64,000 nt of DNA, from the NCBI GenBank assembly GCA_964636285.1, contig CAZWQF010000004.1, positions 3,666 to 67,665 on the forward strand, written 5' to 3'. Below the pieces are notes generated by a model that had not been told where the DNA came from, searched no databases, and was given only the letters and a program-made list of their open reading frames with translations. Positions 13,283-63,535 of the stretch are shown one piece after another. Numbering within the stretch: position 1 is the stretch's first letter; every line of letters starts with the position of its first letter. The position numbers were made by a program, and so were the translations under genes. The stretch is from an uncultured Candidatus Saccharibacteria bacterium (GTDB lineage Bacteria > Patescibacteriota > WWE3 > UBA101185 > 2-01-FULL-41-18).

Positions 13283-13331
13283 GCCCGGGAGACTAAAACC
13301 CAAGCACCGCGCAGGTTTTAGTCTCCCGGGC
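13283..13331. repeat. Palindromic dispersed repeat, type A complete copy (GCCCGGGAGACTAAAACCC - 12 nt - GGTTTTAGTCTCCCGGGC)
   Basis: Perfect 18-19 bp inverted arms in the recR-dnaX intergenic spacer; same motif recurs at 16615, 21167, 43036, 43133 and 63473. Confidence 0.8.
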
Positions 13332-13332
13332 A

Positions 13333-14991
13333 CTACAATTCGATATTACCGTCAAACACATCCATAGCACTCTTTGTCACTTTTTTAACCGTTTCCTCTG
13401 CTGGGATTTCTATATTTCTGTCAGTCAAACTCTCCCCTGCTTTGGACTTTAATTCACATTTAAGCCTAAGCTTTGCCCCAAACATATCAAGTAATGCCTT
13501 CTCCAAAATCTCCCTACTCTTTTTTGACTCCAACCTGTCTTTATGGAACGCATATGCCACCTCCAGTGTAAGCCAACCGTCAGCAACATCCTTAGGTCTG
13601 CAGGACCTTAATAACGCTTCAACCGAATGGTTAAATGGTTTAACCGCCTTTAAAATTTCACTCCACGAATCAAGCACAGACTGAAGCGTAACTACTGTAA
13701 GTGACACTGATTCTGTGTCTCCCAAATCAAGGGAGTCTTCAACCTTACTTTTCTTCTTTTTTCCATCAAGCCCATCAAGCTCATCAAAGTCAGAGAAATC
13801 CCCATTCGCCCCACTACCCTCAACTAAATCTTCATCTTCGGCATTACTACCTCCACTACCGCCACCTCTCTTACCGCCTCTCCCACTATCCCCAGAAGGC
13901 TCAAAATTGCCCTTCTTATTGGTTTTTTTGTCCAAGATAGCTTCACATGAAGCCACAATTGCAAGTTCAACTGGAAGCTGATGTATGGCTGAAGTCTTGA
14001 TCTCTACAGTAGCCTTCATAAATTTTTCTATGATCATCACAAGCTCCATAGGTTCTAATTTTTGTGCTTGATCTTCCATCAGAGCATAAATATCTTCAGG
14101 CATGTCGCTTATCCCTTTTGAGTACCCAGCCTGAACATATAAGAGGTCCCTTAAGTATCTGACATATTCATTTGTCCAGTTAACAAGGTCCACCCCATCG
14201 TCAAATAATTTGTTAATAATGCTCAAAGCTCCTTGAGATTTTGCTTCAATAATTGATCTTGTTAGCTTAACGTAAGTTTCAAGAGCATTTGATCCAAGTA
14301 GAGACTCAACATTTAGCCCTCCATCAAGAACCTGCTCAAGGATTGTGTCTGCATCCCTAAACCCTCCATAAGCTGCAACTGCAACCTTCTGTAGATCTTC
14401 TTTTGAAAGCTCCTTTTTCTCTTTTTCCAAAATGTATTCAAGCCTTGCAACAATTTGTTTGACAGTTGGCCTTTTAAACTTAAAAACTTGGCATCTTGAT
14501 TTAATTGTTTCAGGAACTTTGTGACTTTCCGTTGTACATAAAATAAACACAGCATGCTTTGGCGGCTCTTCCAAAGTTTTTAGGAGCGCATTGAAAGCTT
14601 CGATTGTAAGCATGTGAACCTCATCAATTATGTAGATTTTGTATTTTGATGAGAATGGCGATAGGCCAATAGAATCTTTTAGGGCCCTGATATCATCAAT
14701 TCCTCTGTTACTTGCCGCGTCTATTTCGATTAAATCAATATATTTTCCTACTGAGATTGCTTTGCAAGTGGCGCACTTATCACAGGGATCGCCGTTTTTT
14801 TCAGGCGATTTGCAATTTAAGGCTTTGGCAAAAATCCTTGCTGTGGTTGTTTTACCTGTTCCTCTTGGCCCAATAAAAAGATAAGAATGTGCAATCTTAT
14901 CTTCTGCAATTTGAGACGAAAGGGCAAGCGCCGTATCATTCGGTTTTAAGACCTCCGAAAAGACCTGAGGCCTATATTTCTGATAGAACAT
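13333..14991 (-). CDS. dnaX: DNA polymerase III subunit gamma/tau
   Basis: Walker A GPRGTGKTT, zinc module CxxC...C, clamp-loader boxes; Gly/Asp-rich low-complexity insert. Confidence 0.9.
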   Translation of the reverse strand: MFYQKYRPQVFSEVLKPNDTALALSSQIAEDKIAHSYLFIGPRGTGKTTTARIFAKALNCKSPEKNGDPCDKCATCKAISVGKYIDLIEIDAASNRGIDDIRALKDSIGLSPFSSKYKIYIIDEVHMLTIEAFNALLKTLEEPPKHAVFILCTTESHKVPETIKSRCQVFKFKRPTVKQIVARLEYILEKEKKELSKEDLQKVAVAAYGGFRDADTILEQVLDGGLNVESLLGSNALETYVKLTRSIIEAKSQGALSIINKLFDDGVDLVNWTNEYVRYLRDLLYVQAGYSKGISDMPEDIYALMEDQAQKLEPMELVMIIEKFMKATVEIKTSAIHQLPVELAIVASCEAILDKKTNKKGNFEPSGDSGRGGKRGGGSGGSNAEDEDLVEGSGANGDFSDFDELDGLDGKKKKSKVEDSLDLGDTESVSLTVVTLQSVLDSWSEILKAVKPFNHSVEALLRSCRPKDVADGWLTLEVAYAFHKDRLESKKSREILEKALLDMFGAKLRLKCELKSKAGESLTDRNIEIPAEETVKKVTKSAMDVFDGNIEL

Positions 14992-15147
14992 AAATATTCA
15001 CCTGACGAATTTACCTGGCGGAATTGATTCGCGATAAAAGTATAGAATTTTAATAGATCAAATACAACGAATTTAAATGAGAGTGTATGAATCCGCCGCT
15101 AGCCTAAAGCCCTCACGGCGGATCAAGACTGGAACCCAGATTTCCCA

Positions 15148-15411
15148 TCAGGGCACCCAATTGAAATGCGAATTGAGTGTGAACACAAGGTGAACAACAA
15201 TTGCGGTCCCAATAAATATGTAAAGCCTGGCCCAGTGTTTTGGGATTCTATATTCCTGCTCATGCTGCTTCACAAGGAAGAAAAGCCAACCAGCTGCAAG
15301 AAAATGCGCAAATATGTACAGGTCAAAATGAGTGAGGTGAACAAGCCACCACTCAAATCGTGCCCCTGCTTCATTTAGGGCGTCCAGGAAAATCTTCAGA
15401 AAATCAGGCAT
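15148..15411 (-). CDS. Small membrane protein in GC-rich islet
   Basis: Two hydrophobic helices; downstream hairpin ATCCGCCG...CGGCGGAT at 15075-15106. Confidence 0.4.
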   Translation of the reverse strand: MPDFLKIFLDALNEAGARFEWWLVHLTHFDLYIFAHFLAAGWLFFLVKQHEQEYRIPKHWARLYIFIGTAIVVHLVFTLNSHFNWVP

Positions 15412-15474
15412 TGCGCCCTCCCTCTTTGTTGCCCCTTTCGGGACGGATTGATTAACGAATGATATAGGCGATTC

Positions 15475-16020
15475 TTAAAAAGCGCAAAAGGTGTTTAGTT
15501 TCTCTTTTAGTGATGAGGAATAAAGGTTCTTCAAGACAGTAAGCTCTTCTTCAGAAAACTTTTGTAGAACATAATCTTCAACTTGGAATTTGTTGTTTTC
15601 AGGCCTTCCAACCCCTATTCGCATTCTCCAAAACTCTGAAGAACCGGTCTTTGAGATTATGTCTTCAACGCCGTGATGTCCTGCTGCCTGACTCCCCTTT
15701 TTGACTTTAAAGTCGCCAAATTTAATGTCCACATCATCGTGCAGAACTAAAAGGTCATTGTGATCAACATGGTAATAGCTCATAAGCTTACTTACAGCTT
15801 CGCCACTTTTATTCATAAAAGTTAAGGGCTCAACAAAAAGGCAGTCTGCAATTTTAATAATCTGAGAGTTGAATTTGCTTTCTTCAAGCCACACAACAGA
15901 GTTGTTAAGCTTTTCAGACACAAACTGATTAAGCACCATAAATCCAGCATTATGCCTAGTGTATTCGTATTTTTCGCCTGGATTACCAAGCCCCACAATT
16001 AATTTCATAAATTTTTCCAA
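15475..16020 (-). CDS. pth: Peptidyl-tRNA hydrolase
   Basis: LIVGLGNPG...YxxTRHNAGF signature. Confidence 0.88.
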   Translation of the reverse strand: MEKFMKLIVGLGNPGEKYEYTRHNAGFMVLNQFVSEKLNNSVVWLEESKFNSQIIKIADCLFVEPLTFMNKSGEAVSKLMSYYHVDHNDLLVLHDDVDIKFGDFKVKKGSQAAGHHGVEDIISKTGSSEFWRMRIGVGRPENNKFQVEDYVLQKFSEEELTVLKNLYSSSLKEKLNTFCAF

Positions 16021-62202: not shown

Positions 62203-62625
62203 ATGGCAACTTCACAAAGCACAATGGATTTTTTAACTGATCAGTTAGGAGGCCTTTCTGATATTCGATATAAAAAGATGTTTGGTGAGTACGCTTTGTA
62301 CTATAATGGCAAAGTTGTGGCTTTAGTATGCGACGACCAGTTATTTATTAAACCCACAGATCAGGGACTTTTGTTCATTGCTCGGAGACTTTTTGGTGAC
62401 GAATTAAAGTTTGAAAAATTAAGTGAGAGTAAGAAGGTAAAGGCGATTGAGGACGCTAGAACGCAGGTGGAAAACCCGCCGTATCCTGGTGGAAAAATGT
62501 GGTATTTGATTTCCGGGGATTTATGGGACGACCGCGAATGGATGTGTGGAATTGTGAAGCTGACGGCAAGCCTTGTCCCCTACCCTAAGCTGAAAAAGAA
62601 AAAACCGACAATTGCTCGTGTGTGA
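62203..62625 (+). CDS. TfoX/Sxy N-terminal domain protein
   Basis: KKMFGEYALYYNGKVVALVCDDQLFIK matches the TfoX_N core (MFGGxGxYxxGxxFA.v.dd.LYlK). Confidence 0.65.
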   Translation: MATSQSTMDFLTDQLGGLSDIRYKKMFGEYALYYNGKVVALVCDDQLFIKPTDQGLLFIARRLFGDELKFEKLSESKKVKAIEDARTQVENPPYPGGKMWYLISGDLWDDREWMCGIVKLTASLVPYPKLKKKKPTIARV

Positions 62626-62665
62626 GCGGATTGTCGGTTCTGATTCGCCACAAATCCTCTCAACA

Positions 62666-62989
62666 TCAGGAATTTGGAGGCTGAATGACCGCAAATGAAG
62701 AGCCGTCTGGATAAACCGTGTAAGTTAGAACATGAGTGAAGTTTCTGTAGACCCTCCACTTATCAAATCCCCAGCGAACTCCCCTGATGTTGTGCGGTGC
62801 TCTGAGAAGATAGAAGCCTGGCCAGTCATTACTAGGTGTGACGTTTGTGAAACCAAGGTCTTCGTAGGCCGAAAGGGAAATAACCTTCCCATTCGCATCT
62901 CTCATGGGAAGAATCCACTCTCCATGACCCATGTTACCCATCCTACCGTTAGTTCTTGGGTTCAGCTTCCTGCCGGGTTTACGCAACAT
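62666..62989 (-). CDS. Hypothetical small protein (107 aa), GC-rich islet
   Basis: SD GAGAGG 7 nt before ATG at 62989. Confidence 0.4.
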   Translation of the reverse strand: MLRKPGRKLNPRTNGRMGNMGHGEWILPMRDANGKVISLSAYEDLGFTNVTPSNDWPGFYLLRAPHNIRGVRWGFDKWRVYRNFTHVLTYTVYPDGSSFAVIQPPNS

Positions 62990-63118
62990 TTTAACCTCTC
63001 GTGGGGTGCCAAGTTTTTTTGGAAATCGAACAAAAAAGGCTCGTTATCGAGCCTAAAAACTGCTCCGAAGGGCTTATGATAAAACTACAAACCCTTCGGG
63101 CTATTGAGAAAGGACTAA

Positions 63119-63355
63119 CTAGGAGAAAACAACATACGGGTGCTGTCCATACGGACGCACGATACGAAGTTGCTCCTGCTTCCAATCATCGGTGACGACT
63201 TCATGGCCAGTTGCAGGTTCCCGAGCGACAGACCAACCCTCCGGCAATCCACAAGGGTACTCATCGCCGTTTGCCTGACCCAAAATGGAGATCTTCAGCC
63301 CTCGAAGTTGCTGGAGACTACATTTGCCATCCTGAAGCTTAGTCGGAATCTTCAT
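63119..63355 (-). CDS. Hypothetical small protein (78 aa), GC-rich islet
   Basis: SD AAGGAAGAGGG before ATG at 63355. Confidence 0.4.
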   Translation of the reverse strand: MKIPTKLQDGKCSLQQLRGLKISILGQANGDEYPCGLPEGWSVAREPATGHEVVTDDWKQEQLRIVRPYGQHPYVVFS

Positions 63356-63472
63356 GACGTAGACCCTCTTCCTTATAAGTGAAACGCAATCCAGTCAAAC
63401 GGATTGCAGGCTAATATTTGGTACATCATGTTCTACCACAAATCCATCTTTAGTAAAAGCCCGTGTCTGCTA

Positions 63473-63535
63473 GGTTTTAGAGTCCCGGACTCTAAATTCC
63501 CCAACCATGCGGGTTTTTGTTACCCGTCCAGAAAC
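63473..63535. repeat. Degenerate type A arm (GGTTTTAGAGTCCCGGACTCTAAA, itself near-palindromic) followed by type B right arm GCGGGTTTTTGTTACCCGTCCAGAAAC
   Basis: Matches the dispersed repeat family; marks the boundary between the GC-rich islet and the transporter gene. Confidence 0.7.

What the first reader, a model, noticed from the sequence alone, without database searches (positions are those of the whole stretch)
13283..63535. Dispersed palindromic repeat family (two related subtypes) sitting at core-gene junctions
Exact or near-exact copies of GGGTTTTAGTCTCCCGGAC (type A) and GGGTTTTC(A/G)TTACCCGTCCAG (type B) and their reverse complements occur at 13283-13331 (full A palindrome), 16615-16632 (A half), 21127-21147 plus 21167-21185 (B and A left arms), 21925-21945 (B right arm), 32588-32640 (full B palindrome), 43036-43151 (A-left, B-right, A-right nested), 45018-45034 (partial B) and 63473-63535 (degenerate A plus B). 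Both subtypes share an outer GCATTTCTG / CAGAAAT(G) extension, so they form one family. Every copy is intergenic and lies between conserved genes (recR|dnaX, nudix|ybeY, proS|rseP, dprA|mrdA, GH1|tRNA-Thr, islet|NRAMP). That placement fits a REP/MITE-like mobile palindrome, a binding site for a dedicated transposase or recombinase, or a regulatory stem-loop reused across transcription units. The GTTTTAG core superficially recalls type II CRISPR repeats, but the copies are not arrayed.
Basis: seen in the sequence. Interest (0 to 1): 0.7.

Follow-up and report, generated by a model that had tools for sequence, protein, structure and literature searches.

The report
Mobile palindromic repeats in CPR bacterium
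A small-genome Patescibacteria (CPR, WWE3-like) bacterium carries a young, lineage-specific family of hairpin-forming repeats that have inserted between its core genes; they look like ordinary miniature non-autonomous transposable elements, not a new kind of system.

Summary
Thirteen arms of two related 19-nt types (A: GGGTTTTAGTCTCCCGGRC; B: GGGTTTTCRTTACCCGTCC) lie at six intergenic loci in the window, against about 0.01 expected by chance. A Logan contig from the same organism, running 6.6 kb past the window, adds three loci.

The arms behave as terminal inverted repeats. All 7 pairs are homotypic, and 6 match at 17-19 of 19 core positions. They bound inserts of 57, 114, 142 and about 820 nt. 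The longest carries two tiny ORFs, a promoter-like site and a hairpin with a T run.

- **Nesting:** three loci fit one copy lying inside the centre of another.
- **Decay:** several copies are degraded.
- **Empty sites:** relatives with 60-76% identical flanking proteins have none. Their dnaX|recR spacing is 3 nt or an overlap, against 57 nt here. Their nusG|rplK spacing is 26 nt, against 127 nt.
- **Other collections:** scans of species-representative genomes, JGI metagenomes, viral contigs and plasmids gave only chance hits. Rfam has no matching family.

Best reading: a MITE/REPIN-like non-autonomous mobile element family, with one cargo-carrying variant, moved in trans by a transposase not seen in these 70 kb.

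No consistent target-site duplication was found, so DDE-type versus HUH/RAYT-type mobilisation stays open. This is a new member of a known kind and of moderate interest.

The parts
13277..13335 (.). W1: complete short type A element. Left arm 13283-13301, 11-nt centre, right arm 13313-13331. It fills the whole 57-nt spacer between the dnaX stop codon (13333-13335) and the recR start codon (13273-13275).
   Evidence: Core pairing is 18 of 19. RNA fold is -42.1 kcal/mol in the mRNA sense, z = -8.1. DNA fold is -23.4 kcal/mol. Relatives have a 3-nt spacer or overlapping genes at this junction.
16584..16636 (.). W2: short type A element with a decayed left arm (ACTCTAAGGACTGAAAACT) and an intact right arm at 16614-16632. 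It lies between the ybeY stop codon and the start of a NUDIX-like gene.
   Evidence: families D6, I1. Core pairing is only 11 Watson-Crick plus 3 G-T of 19. The fold is no better than shuffled sequence, z = -0.26.
21123..21160 (.). W3, outer left end: type B left arm (core 21129-21147) with the ATTCTG extension. It abuts the proS start codon (21121-23).
   Evidence: It pairs 19 of 19 with the B right arm at 21925-21943, 777 nt away (I3, 67).
21161..21198 (.). W3, inner: type A left arm (core 21167-21185), in direct orientation 38 nt after the B arm. A possible heavily decayed A right arm lies at 21211-21229.
   Evidence: The same B-then-A arrangement, with 38-39-nt spacing, recurs at 63472-63535 (I2).
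21199..21924 (+). W3 cargo. It holds a promoter-like site (21280-21309) and two tiny basic ORFs preceded by Shine-Dalgarno-like motifs (21353-21520, 55 aa; 21692-21811, 39 aa). A 14-bp perfect inverted repeat (21834-21847 / 21890-21903) is followed by a T run.
   Evidence: I21. No Pfam hits. No homologue in the relatives' loci.
21925..21949 (.). W3, outer right end: type B right arm. It lies 3 nt from the rseP stop codon (21950).
32581..32640 (.). W4: complete short type B element. Left arm 32590-32608 with the GCATTTCTG extension, 11-nt centre, right arm 32620-32638. It lies between the mrdA (PBP2) stop codon and the dprA start codon.
   Evidence: Core pairing is 19 of 19. RNA fold is -39.6/-39.4 kcal/mol, z = -7.3/-8.4. 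DNA fold is -24.9 kcal/mol.
43032..43157 (.). W5: type A element (left arm 43036-43054, right arm 43133-43151 plus CAGAAAT). A type B copy is nested in its centre. That copy keeps the ATTTCTGG remnant at 43075-43082 and the right arm at 43094-43112, and has lost 17 nt of its left arm. The locus lies in the divergent spacer between the GH1 gene and tRNA-Thr.
   Evidence: Alignment A2 shows the 17-nt deletion. A/A core pairing is 18 of 19. tRNA at 43226.
63472..63535 (.). W6: two right arms in tandem. One is a degenerate A arm (63472-63490, locally self-palindromic as TTTAGAGTCC/GGACTCTAAA). The other is a B arm (63511-63529 plus AGAAA). Spacing is 39 nt. This fits the right half of an A-inside-B composite.
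   Evidence: (I2, 83% complementary over 40 nt to 21125-21164).
45018..45034 (+). It is not distinguishable from chance and is listed only for completeness.
   Evidence: nhmmer E = 4. Appears in the repeat finder family D14.

Best explanation
These are copies of a lineage-specific family of non-autonomous mobile DNA elements. There are two subfamilies, A and B, in a Patescibacteria (CPR, WWE3-like) genome.

**Structure.** Each element is bounded by a matched pair of inverted repeats about 25-35 nt long. Read from outside in, an arm is ATTTCTG, a 19-nt core, then roughly GCAYNGTT. The ends read 5'-TG...CA-3'.
- The shortest copies (57 nt) are little more than the two repeats back to back, so they form a perfect hairpin of 19-23 bp.
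- Longer copies carry 68-98 nt of internal sequence.
- One copy carries about 740 nt of cargo, which makes it resemble a mobile insertion cassette.

**Mechanism (inferred).** A transposase encoded elsewhere in the genome binds the arms and moves the elements in trans. Only insertions that miss coding sequence survive in this compact genome. That would explain why copies sit in the few nucleotides between adjacent genes or inside the centre of an earlier copy. After insertion they decay, through arm deletions and point changes.

**Side effects (inferred).** Any effect on expression is secondary. Possibilities include the hairpin acting as an RNase III or mRNA-stability site, an internal terminator, or a stem that brings a stop codon and the next start codon together.

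**Shown:** the repeat family, its inverted-repeat architecture, variable internal length, nesting, decay, intergenic restriction, and absence from relatives.

**Inferred:** the transposase, its type, and the RNA-level consequences.
For: - **Non-chance family:** 13 arms against about 0.01 expected. Five more arms lie in the next 6.6 kb of the same genome. L023 matches the window with 0 mismatches and one 1-nt indel.
- **Matched pairs:** 7 of 7 arm pairs are homotypic (A with A, B with B). Core complementarity is 17-19 of 19 in six of them. The G/A variant inside B arms is the same in both arms of each element, 3 of 3.
- **Variable internal length:** distances between paired cores are 11, 11, 68, 78, 96 and 777 nt. 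This is the pattern of deletion derivatives and cargo carriers bounded by inverted repeats.
- **Nesting:** W5 is a B copy inside an A copy, with a 17-nt deletion (alignment A2). W3 and W6 fit an A copy inside a B copy.
- **Empty sites:** dnaX|recR is 57 nt here, all of it element. It is 3 nt in L015 (DnaX 76% identical), and the genes overlap in L016 (60%). nusG|rplK is 127 nt here and 26 nt in L025 (L1 75% identical).
- **No arms in relatives:** none in about 40 kb of six related loci.
- **Lineage-specific:** an exact 18-mer scan of 185,579 species-representative genomes and of JGI metagenomes gave only isolated chance hits, none with a partner arm or the extension. Viral contigs and plasmids gave the same result.
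- **Recent spread plus decay:** A arms are 89-100% identical to each other. W2-left, E9-right, W6-A and W5-B are degraded. This argues against strong site-by-site selection for the hairpin.
- **Strictly intergenic:** all 9 loci are intergenic although 79-85% of the sequence is ORF.
- **No known RNA family:** Rfam has no matching family.
Against: - **No transposase seen.** None of the 50 ORFs screened with Pfam is a transposase or recombinase, and the precomputed Pfam families for the called genes on L023 show none either. Shorter ORFs were not screened, and the rest of the genome could not be reached.
- **No target-site duplication.** No consistent duplication was found at any choice of element boundary. 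The best case was a 2-nt match in 4 of 7 elements. A classical DDE-type MITE should have one.
- **Asymmetric extension.** The outer ATTTCTG extension is present on only one arm of most complete pairs. Solo arms and direct tandem arms also exist. These features fit REP/REPIN-like HUH mobilisation at least as well.
- **No direct proof of mobility.** No presence/absence polymorphism between strains of the same species could be obtained. Mobility is inferred from comparison with relatives whose proteins are only 60-76% identical.
- **Small sample.** Only 9 loci could be examined.
Confidence: 0.55

Rival explanations
1. REP/REPIN-like elements are moved by a HUH tyrosine transposase (RAYT or IS200/IS605 TnpA-like) acting on single-stranded hairpin DNA. 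In this reading the basic unit is the single arm of about 25 nt. It has a conserved 5' motif (ATTTC/TG) next to a small internal stem-loop. Inverted doublets of arms form the long hairpins, as in REPINs.
For: - No target-site duplication.
- Solo arms exist (L023 9571-9599). Direct tandem arms occur at 38-39-nt spacing.
- The outer ATTTCTG motif is found on one side only of most doublets, and seven of eight such sides are preceded by TTC.
- Each arm has its own small stem, CGGG(N9)CCCG. In B arms it extends to ACGGGT/ACCCGT. All the A/B differences lie outside that stem.
- Copies have inserted into the centres of other hairpins.
- Placement is strictly extragenic, and there are two sequence types, as with the Y/Z REP types of E. 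coli (established knowledge).
Against: - There is no GTAG-type 5' tetranucleotide.
- The internal arm stem is only 4-6 bp. Given 5 differences in 19 positions, none falling in the stem has a probability of about 0.07, which is weak evidence.
- Elements with 68-777 nt between matched arms, including cargo, are more typical of elements bounded by terminal inverted repeats.
- No RAYT or TnpA-Y1 gene was seen in the 70 kb examined.
Confidence: 0.25
2. The hairpins are mainly host regulatory RNA structures, reused across transcription units. They might be RNase III processing sites, 3' stabilisers, attenuators, or stems that preserve translational coupling. In this reading selection keeps them, and mobility is not what maintains them.
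For: - The hairpins are very stable in the mRNA sense, -39 to -42 kcal/mol, z about -7 to -9.5.
- Several sit exactly between co-directional genes of an operon (dnaX-recR, mrdA-dprA, ybeY-nudix). The stem foot lies 1-3 nt from the stop and start codons.
- The one mismatch in W1 is a G-U wobble on the transcribed strand.
- E9 carries an internal terminator-like hairpin just upstream of the conserved rplJ promoter.
Against: - They are absent from the same junctions in all relatives examined, so these operons do not need them.
- Decayed copies (W2 folds no better than shuffled sequence), half copies, nested copies and a copy in a divergent promoter region (W5) do not fit a site-specific role.
- No U-tract follows the long stems, so they are not canonical intrinsic terminators.
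- Near-identity of dispersed copies points to recent copying and not to convergent selection.
Confidence: 0.1
3. The arms are recognition sites for a DNA-level host process. Candidates are DNA-uptake sequences for self-biased natural transformation, or sites for a site-specific recombinase of the integron attC type that lets cassettes such as the W3 cargo be inserted.
For: - dprA and a TfoX-domain gene lie in the window. Uptake sequences in Neisseria and Haemophilus often occur as inverted intergenic pairs (established knowledge).
- W3 looks like a small cassette bounded by B arms.
Against: - Density is only about 0.25 arms per kb, and none lies in coding sequence. Known uptake sequences are shorter, far denser and mostly intragenic.
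- There are no attC-type R/L boxes or extrahelical bases. Stems are perfect.
- There is no integrase and no co-oriented cassette array in the window.
Confidence: 0.04
4. The copies are CRISPR-related, either orphan type II-like repeats or anti-repeats, or they belong to another guide-RNA array such as TIGR.
For: The core GTTTTAGTCTCCC resembles the 5' end of some type II-C repeats. This is from my own recollection and is only a lead. TIGR-Tas systems do occur in CPR bacteria (PMC12045711).
Against: - There is no regular repeat-spacer array.
- The largest ORF in the window is TopA at 829 aa, and no Cas-like protein was found.
- Tandem arms are separated by only 12-13 nt.
- TIGR arrays use alternating 8-12-nt repeats with 9-nt spacers next to a Nop-domain gene. 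Nothing here matches that.
Confidence: 0.01

Closest known systems
Bacterial MITEs, for example Correia elements (CREE/NEMIS) of Neisseria and RUP of Streptococcus pneumoniae
   Same: They are short, non-coding, multi-copy and intergenic. They are bounded by terminal inverted repeats of about 25 nt, fold into long hairpins when transcribed, exist as length variants, and are specific to a lineage. Correia elements are also known to alter expression of neighbouring genes and to be cut by RNase III (established knowledge).
   Different: There is no sequence similarity. No TA or other target-site duplication was detected. The shortest copies are only 57 nt, essentially two inverted repeats with no internal sequence. 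Two subfamilies insert into each other's centres. The host is a CPR bacterium, a group in which my literature search found no report of such families.
REP / REPIN / BIME elements with RAYT transposases (Enterobacteria, Pseudomonas)
   Same: They are extragenic, high-density repeats. Units of about 25 nt occur alone, as inverted doublets that form long hairpins, and in clusters. More than one sequence type exists per genome. They make no target-site duplication and carry a conserved motif at the 5' foot.
   Different: The conserved GTAG tetranucleotide is absent. The palindrome within each unit is weak, at 4-6 bp. Matched arms can enclose up to 777 nt. No RAYT gene was seen.
Mobile insertion cassettes (MICs, e.g. 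MIC231 of Bacillus cereus) and transporter IS elements
   Same: The W3 copy (21123-21949) has perfect 19-nt cores plus extensions as terminal inverted repeats. It has no transposase and carries passenger ORFs with a promoter-like site and a terminator-like hairpin.
   Different: The passengers are two tiny ORFs (55 and 39 aa) of unknown function. Only one such copy was seen, so its mobility as a unit is unproven.
Rickettsia palindromic elements (RPE) and other repeats of reduced genomes
   Same: A palindromic repeat family has proliferated in a small, host-dependent bacterial genome.
   Different: RPEs insert in frame into protein-coding genes. These elements are strictly intergenic.

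Membership tests
MITE (non-autonomous element bounded by terminal inverted repeats) | Small size, under about 600 bp, with no transposase ORF | tested here: met
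   Elements are 57, 114, 126 and 142 nt. The 827-nt W3 copy holds only 55-aa and 39-aa ORFs with no Pfam hit.
MITE (non-autonomous element bounded by terminal inverted repeats) | Terminal inverted repeats | tested here: met
   7 of 7 pairs are homotypic. Six of the seven match at 17-19 of 19 core positions, and the decayed W2 copy is the exception. The ends read TG...CA.
MITE (non-autonomous element bounded by terminal inverted repeats) | Target-site duplication flanking each copy | tested here: inconclusive
   Every boundary offset from 0 to 10 nt and duplication length from 2 to 9 nt was tried on 7 elements. The best result was a 2-nt match in 4 of 7, which is chance level in AT-rich flanks. 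The sample is small.
MITE (non-autonomous element bounded by terminal inverted repeats) | Multiple dispersed copies in the genome | tested here: met
   9 loci and 18 arms in 70.6 kb.
MITE (non-autonomous element bounded by terminal inverted repeats) | Presence/absence at orthologous sites | tested here: met
   The dnaX|recR and nusG|rplK junctions are empty in relatives. Only inter-species comparison was possible.
MITE (non-autonomous element bounded by terminal inverted repeats) | A parent autonomous IS with the same inverted repeats in the genome | not testable with these tools
   Only 70.6 kb of the genome could be read. The NCBI contig (132,681 bp) and the rest of the MAG were not retrievable.
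REP / REPIN (RAYT-associated) | Each unit is a 20-40-nt imperfect palindrome | tested here: inconclusive
   Arms contain only a 4-6-bp internal stem, CGGG...CCCG, or ACGGGT/ACCCGT in some B arms.
REP / REPIN (RAYT-associated) | Conserved GTAG-type tetranucleotide at the 5' foot | tested here: not met
   The outer motif is ATTTCTG / CAGAAAT. No arm contains GTAG.
REP / REPIN (RAYT-associated) | Extragenic, with inverted doublets that form hairpins | tested here: met
REP / REPIN (RAYT-associated) | A RAYT gene flanked by the repeats | not testable with these tools
   None among the 50 ORFs screened with Pfam in the 70 kb or the precomputed families for L023 genes. The rest of the genome was unavailable.
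CRISPR array | Regularly spaced direct repeats separated by unique spacers of about 26 nt or more, usually with cas genes | tested here: not met
   Copies are dispersed over 50 kb, mostly as inverted pairs. Tandem arms are 12-13 nt apart. No Cas-like ORF was found.
Intrinsic (rho-independent) terminator | GC-rich hairpin immediately followed by a U-tract | tested here: not met
   No T run follows W1, W2, W4 or W5 on either strand. The scan reports only the separate internal hairpins: the hairpin inside E9, and some weak sites in W3.
Integron attC site | R''/L''-L'/R' boxes (GTTRRRY core), extrahelical bases, co-oriented cassette array next to intI | tested here: not met
   Stems are perfect with no bulges and no GTTRRRY core. 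The window has no integrase.
TIGR array (Tas-associated) | Tandem units of two alternating 8-12-nt repeats with 9-nt spacers beside a Nop-domain gene | tested here: not met
   The architecture described in PMC12045711 is not present.
Tn3-family inverted repeat / TIME | 38-bp inverted repeat starting with GGGG, 5-bp target-site duplication | tested here: not met
   B arms share ACGAAAAC with the Tn3 inverted repeat (recollection). They have no terminal GGGG. blastn of the extended arms against 72,556 plasmids, which I would expect to include many Tn3-family transposons, gave only chance hits.

The most novel reading that the evidence does not exclude
The family is a previously undescribed hairpin-dependent mobile system of CPR bacteria. 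Its units would make no target-site duplication, be recognised as single-stranded hairpins, prefer the centres of existing hairpins and the few nucleotides between stop and start codons, and be driven by a transposase or recombinase class not yet linked to such repeats. Alternatively, the host has co-opted the hairpins, so that perfectly palindromic inserts keep translational coupling or provide operon-internal processing sites in a genome with almost no intergenic space.
Probability: 0.1. Interest if true: 0.6.

Novelty: new member of a known kind. Interest (0 to 1): 0.33.

Why it matters
CPR/Patescibacteria genomes are very small and streamlined, and proliferating repeat families are rarely discussed for them. 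My literature searches found no report of MITE- or REP-like families in this group.

A young family at roughly one arm per 4 kb shows that selfish DNA can still expand in such a genome, but only in the tiny spaces between genes.

The family has practical uses:
- It can serve as a strain-level marker.
- It is a likely cause of breaks in metagenome assemblies.
- It is a handle for finding its transposase.

It also offers natural test cases of how a perfect 20-bp hairpin placed between tightly coupled genes (dnaX-recR, mrdA-dprA) affects their expression.

It does not change any general concept.

Tried and rejected
**Searches for the family elsewhere**
- Exact 18-mer scans of species-representative genomes and of JGI metagenomes gave 4 and 9 isolated hits. 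None had a partner arm or the extension, so they are chance.
- Two viral-contig scans gave chance hits only.
- blastn of the extended arms against plasmids gave chance hits only. I therefore dropped a remembered resemblance of the B arm (ACGAAAAC) to Tn3-family inverted repeats.

**RNA families**
- Rfam at gathering thresholds found only the four tRNAs.
- At E-value thresholds it found only sub-threshold miRNA-precursor hairpin noise.

**Other systems**
- TIGR-Tas arrays, which are known in CPR, were considered after a literature hit. Their architecture does not fit.
- The CRISPR reading is rejected. There is no array and no cas gene.

**Target-site duplication**
- An exhaustive boundary search found none that is consistent.

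**Transposase**
- Pfam on 50 window and L023 ORFs found none, nor did the precomputed families for L023 genes.

**Reaching the rest of the genome, or a second strain**
- Exact-protein look-ups for DnaX, L1, ProRS and DprA found nothing on record.
- Cluster look-up gave no accession or organism name.

**Orientation**
- I tried to orient the elements from their loop sequences. The loops are themselves quasi-palindromic, because they are made of the inner ends of the two arms, so short copies have no usable orientation.

**W3 cargo**
- The W3 cargo ORFs have no counterpart in the relatives' loci.

**Unconfirmed copies**
- The 'partial B' at 45018-45034 is not significant.
- A B-like palindrome at 28161-28208 is also not significant.

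Full report
**1. Observation**

Searching the window with the two motifs, allowing up to 3 mismatches, gives 7 type A arms and 6 type B arms. Shuffled sequence gives 0.01 and 0.00 expected matches.

A profile HMM built from the 13 arms recovers exactly these at E <= 6e-4. Nothing else scores below E = 0.4.

When the arms are oriented alike they are colinear:
- Type A is GGGTTTTAGTCTCCCGGRC.
- Type B is GGGTTTTCRTTACCCGTCC.
- Most carry an outer extension AGAA(A)T(GC), and an inner continuation of roughly GCAYNGTT.

None overlaps an ORF of 90 aa or more, although ORFs cover 79-85% of the window.

RecR is confirmed by the precomputed Pfam families. The NUDIX match is weak. The 'NRAMP' label found no support.

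**2. Organism and wider distribution**

DnaX and L1 homologues place the window in Patescibacteria (CPR), near candidate division WWE3. Identical proteins are recorded on an NCBI contig of 132,681 bp.

An exact 18-mer scan of 185,579 species-representative genomes gave 4 isolated hits, and the scan of JGI metagenomes gave 9. None has a partner arm or the extension, so they are chance. Viral contigs and plasmids also gave only chance hits.

Logan contigs from run SRR12762304 match the window. L001 covers dnaX|recR, including the element, with 0 mismatches. L023 covers window 58511-64000 with 0 mismatches and one 1-nt indel, and continues 6.6 kb further.

In that extra 6.6 kb the arm HMM finds five more arms at three loci:
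- **E7** (L023 6472-6585) is a B pair enclosing 68 nt.
- **E8** (L023 9571-9599) is a solo A arm in the nusG|rplK spacer.
- **E9** (L023 10777-10918) is an A pair enclosing 96 nt. The insert includes a terminator-like hairpin. E9 sits immediately upstream of a TTGACA-17-TACAAT promoter for rplJ, which is conserved in a relative.

So the family is dense here, about 0.25 arms per kb, and is apparently private to this lineage.

**3. Anatomy**

All seven arm pairs are homotypic. Core complementarity is 17-19 of 19, except in the decayed W2 copy. The G/A variant inside B arms is the same in both arms of each of three elements.

The distance between paired cores is 11, 11, 68, 78, 96 or 777 nt. The elements are therefore matched inverted repeats around a variable interior, with ends reading 5'-TG...CA-3'.

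The two 57-nt copies (W1, W4) are almost pure inverted repeat. As RNA they fold at -39 to -42 kcal/mol, z = -7 to -9.5. As DNA they fold at -23 to -25 kcal/mol.

The 827-nt W3 copy (21123-21949) carries:
- a promoter-like site;
- two tiny basic ORFs preceded by Shine-Dalgarno-like motifs;
- a 14-bp perfect inverted repeat followed by a T run.

It has no Pfam hit and no counterpart in relatives. It resembles a mobile insertion cassette.

Three loci are composites, and all three fit nesting:
- **W5** is an A element with a B copy in its centre. The B copy keeps ATTTCTGG and its right arm, and has lost 17 nt of its left arm.
- **W3** has an A left arm 38 nt inside the B left arm.
- **W6** has the matching right halves, A then B, 39 nt apart.

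Several arms are degraded: W2-left, E9-right, W6-A and W5-B.

**4. Comparison with relatives**

| Junction | This genome | Relative |
|---|---|---|
| dnaX\|recR | 57 nt, all of it element | 3 nt in L015 (GCA_964430495.1, DnaX 76% identical) |
| dnaX\|recR | as above | genes overlap by 4 nt in L016 (DnaX 60% identical) |
| nusG\|rplK | 127 nt with a solo arm | 26 nt in L025 (L1 75% identical) |

No arm was found in about 40 kb of six related loci. The elements are therefore insertions acquired after this lineage split from its sampled relatives.

**5. Interpretation**

The following features together are the signature of a non-autonomous mobile element family of the MITE/REPIN kind, mobilised in trans:
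- the copies are near-identical and dispersed;
- the inverted repeats are matched;
- the interiors vary in length;
- one variant carries cargo;
- copies are nested;
- copies are decaying;
- placement is strictly intergenic;
- orthologous sites in relatives are empty.

The transposase type is unresolved. For a DDE-type MITE speak the inverted-repeat-bounded variable interiors, the TG...CA ends and the cargo copy. Against it, and in favour of a REP/RAYT-like HUH mechanism, speak four things:
- No consistent target-site duplication exists.
- Solo arms and direct tandem arms occur.
- The outer ATTTCTG motif is usually present on only one arm of a pair.
- Each arm has a small conserved internal stem, CGGG...CCCG.

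No transposase, integrase or RAYT was found among the 50 ORFs screened with Pfam or in the precomputed families for the L023 genes. The rest of the genome could not be retrieved.

**6. Rival readings**

- **Dedicated regulatory hairpin.** This is unlikely as the primary explanation. Relatives lack the hairpins at the same operon junctions, some copies are broken, and one lies in a divergent promoter region. Secondary effects are plausible but untested, such as RNase III cleavage, mRNA stabilisation, or a stem that brings the stop codon and the next start codon together.
- **Intrinsic terminator.** The long stems are not followed by a T run, so they are not canonical terminators.
- **Other systems.** CRISPR, TIGR, integron attC, Tn3-type inverted repeats and DNA-uptake sequences each fail defining features.
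- **Rfam.** It holds no matching family.

**7. Novelty and score**

Literature searches found no description of MITE- or REP-like families in CPR bacteria. This is a new family in an unusual host, but a member of a well-known kind.

It is of moderate interest:
- It is useful as a marker and as a route to its transposase.
- It is a natural experiment in placing strong hairpins between tightly packed genes.

The most novel reading not excluded is a hairpin-dependent mobile or co-opted system, without target-site duplication, that is particular to CPR. I put its probability at about 0.1.

Noticed in passing
window 45459-53857: There is a tandem array of about ten small + strand ORFs (135-239 aa) with no Pfam hits. 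Eight of them were aligned: they are very divergent (10-16% identity to the first sequence), and most share an N-terminal hydrophobic segment. They are separated by conserved 40-76-nt intergenic blocks, for example 47875-47950, 49118-49193 and 51416-51491. This may be a fast-evolving surface or membrane protein family with a shared promoter or leader.
   Followed up: partly
window ~35780-35910: Genes switch strand here. Nearly all are on the - strand before 35.8 kb and mostly on the + strand after. The steady fall in cumulative GC skew also levels off near this point. It could be a replication origin.
   Followed up: no
window 21353-21520 and 21692-21811: Two tiny, basic, low-complexity ORFs (55 and 39 aa) are preceded by Shine-Dalgarno-like motifs, a promoter-like site (21280-21309) and a terminator-like hairpin. 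They lie inside the B-bounded W3 element, on the strand opposite to the flanking core genes. They have no Pfam hit and no homologue in the relatives' loci.
   Followed up: partly
window 28161-28208: A perfect 15-nt inverted repeat, TTTGGTTGCCCGTCC / GGACGGGCAACCAAA, resembles the B arm (13 of 15) but with the arms facing outward. It lies in the 3' part of a small - strand ORF (28075-28527) between rpsB and topA. Against the arm HMM it is not significant, E = 6.8. It could be a relic or a coincidence.
   Followed up: partly
window 56015-56080: An unrelated 18-nt inverted repeat, 94% complementary with a 30-nt AT-rich loop, lies between convergent ORFs. It is probably a bidirectional terminator-like structure.
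   Followed up: no
Its identity is unverified.
   Followed up: partly
L023 10924-10952 and L024 ~5323-5355: A near-consensus sigma-70-type promoter (TTGACA-17-TACAAT) upstream of rplJ is conserved between this genome and a relative whose L1 is 70% identical. Element E9 ends a few nucleotides upstream of its -35 box.
   Followed up: partly
window 44880-58568: tRNA-Thr(TGT) and tRNA-Trp are 13.5 kb apart, and the interval holds the ORF array and other small genes. secE-nusG-rplKAJL lie another 8.6 kb downstream of tRNA-Trp. No tuf gene turned up among the ORFs screened with Pfam in this interval, and not all of them were screened. From memory, many bacteria have a compact tRNA-tuf / tRNA-Trp-secE-nusG arrangement, which suggests rearrangement or insertion here.
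   Followed up: no
window 58511-64000 vs L023 1-5491: The Logan contig from SRR12762304 matches the window with 0 mismatches and a single 1-nt indel. I did not locate its position.
   Followed up: no
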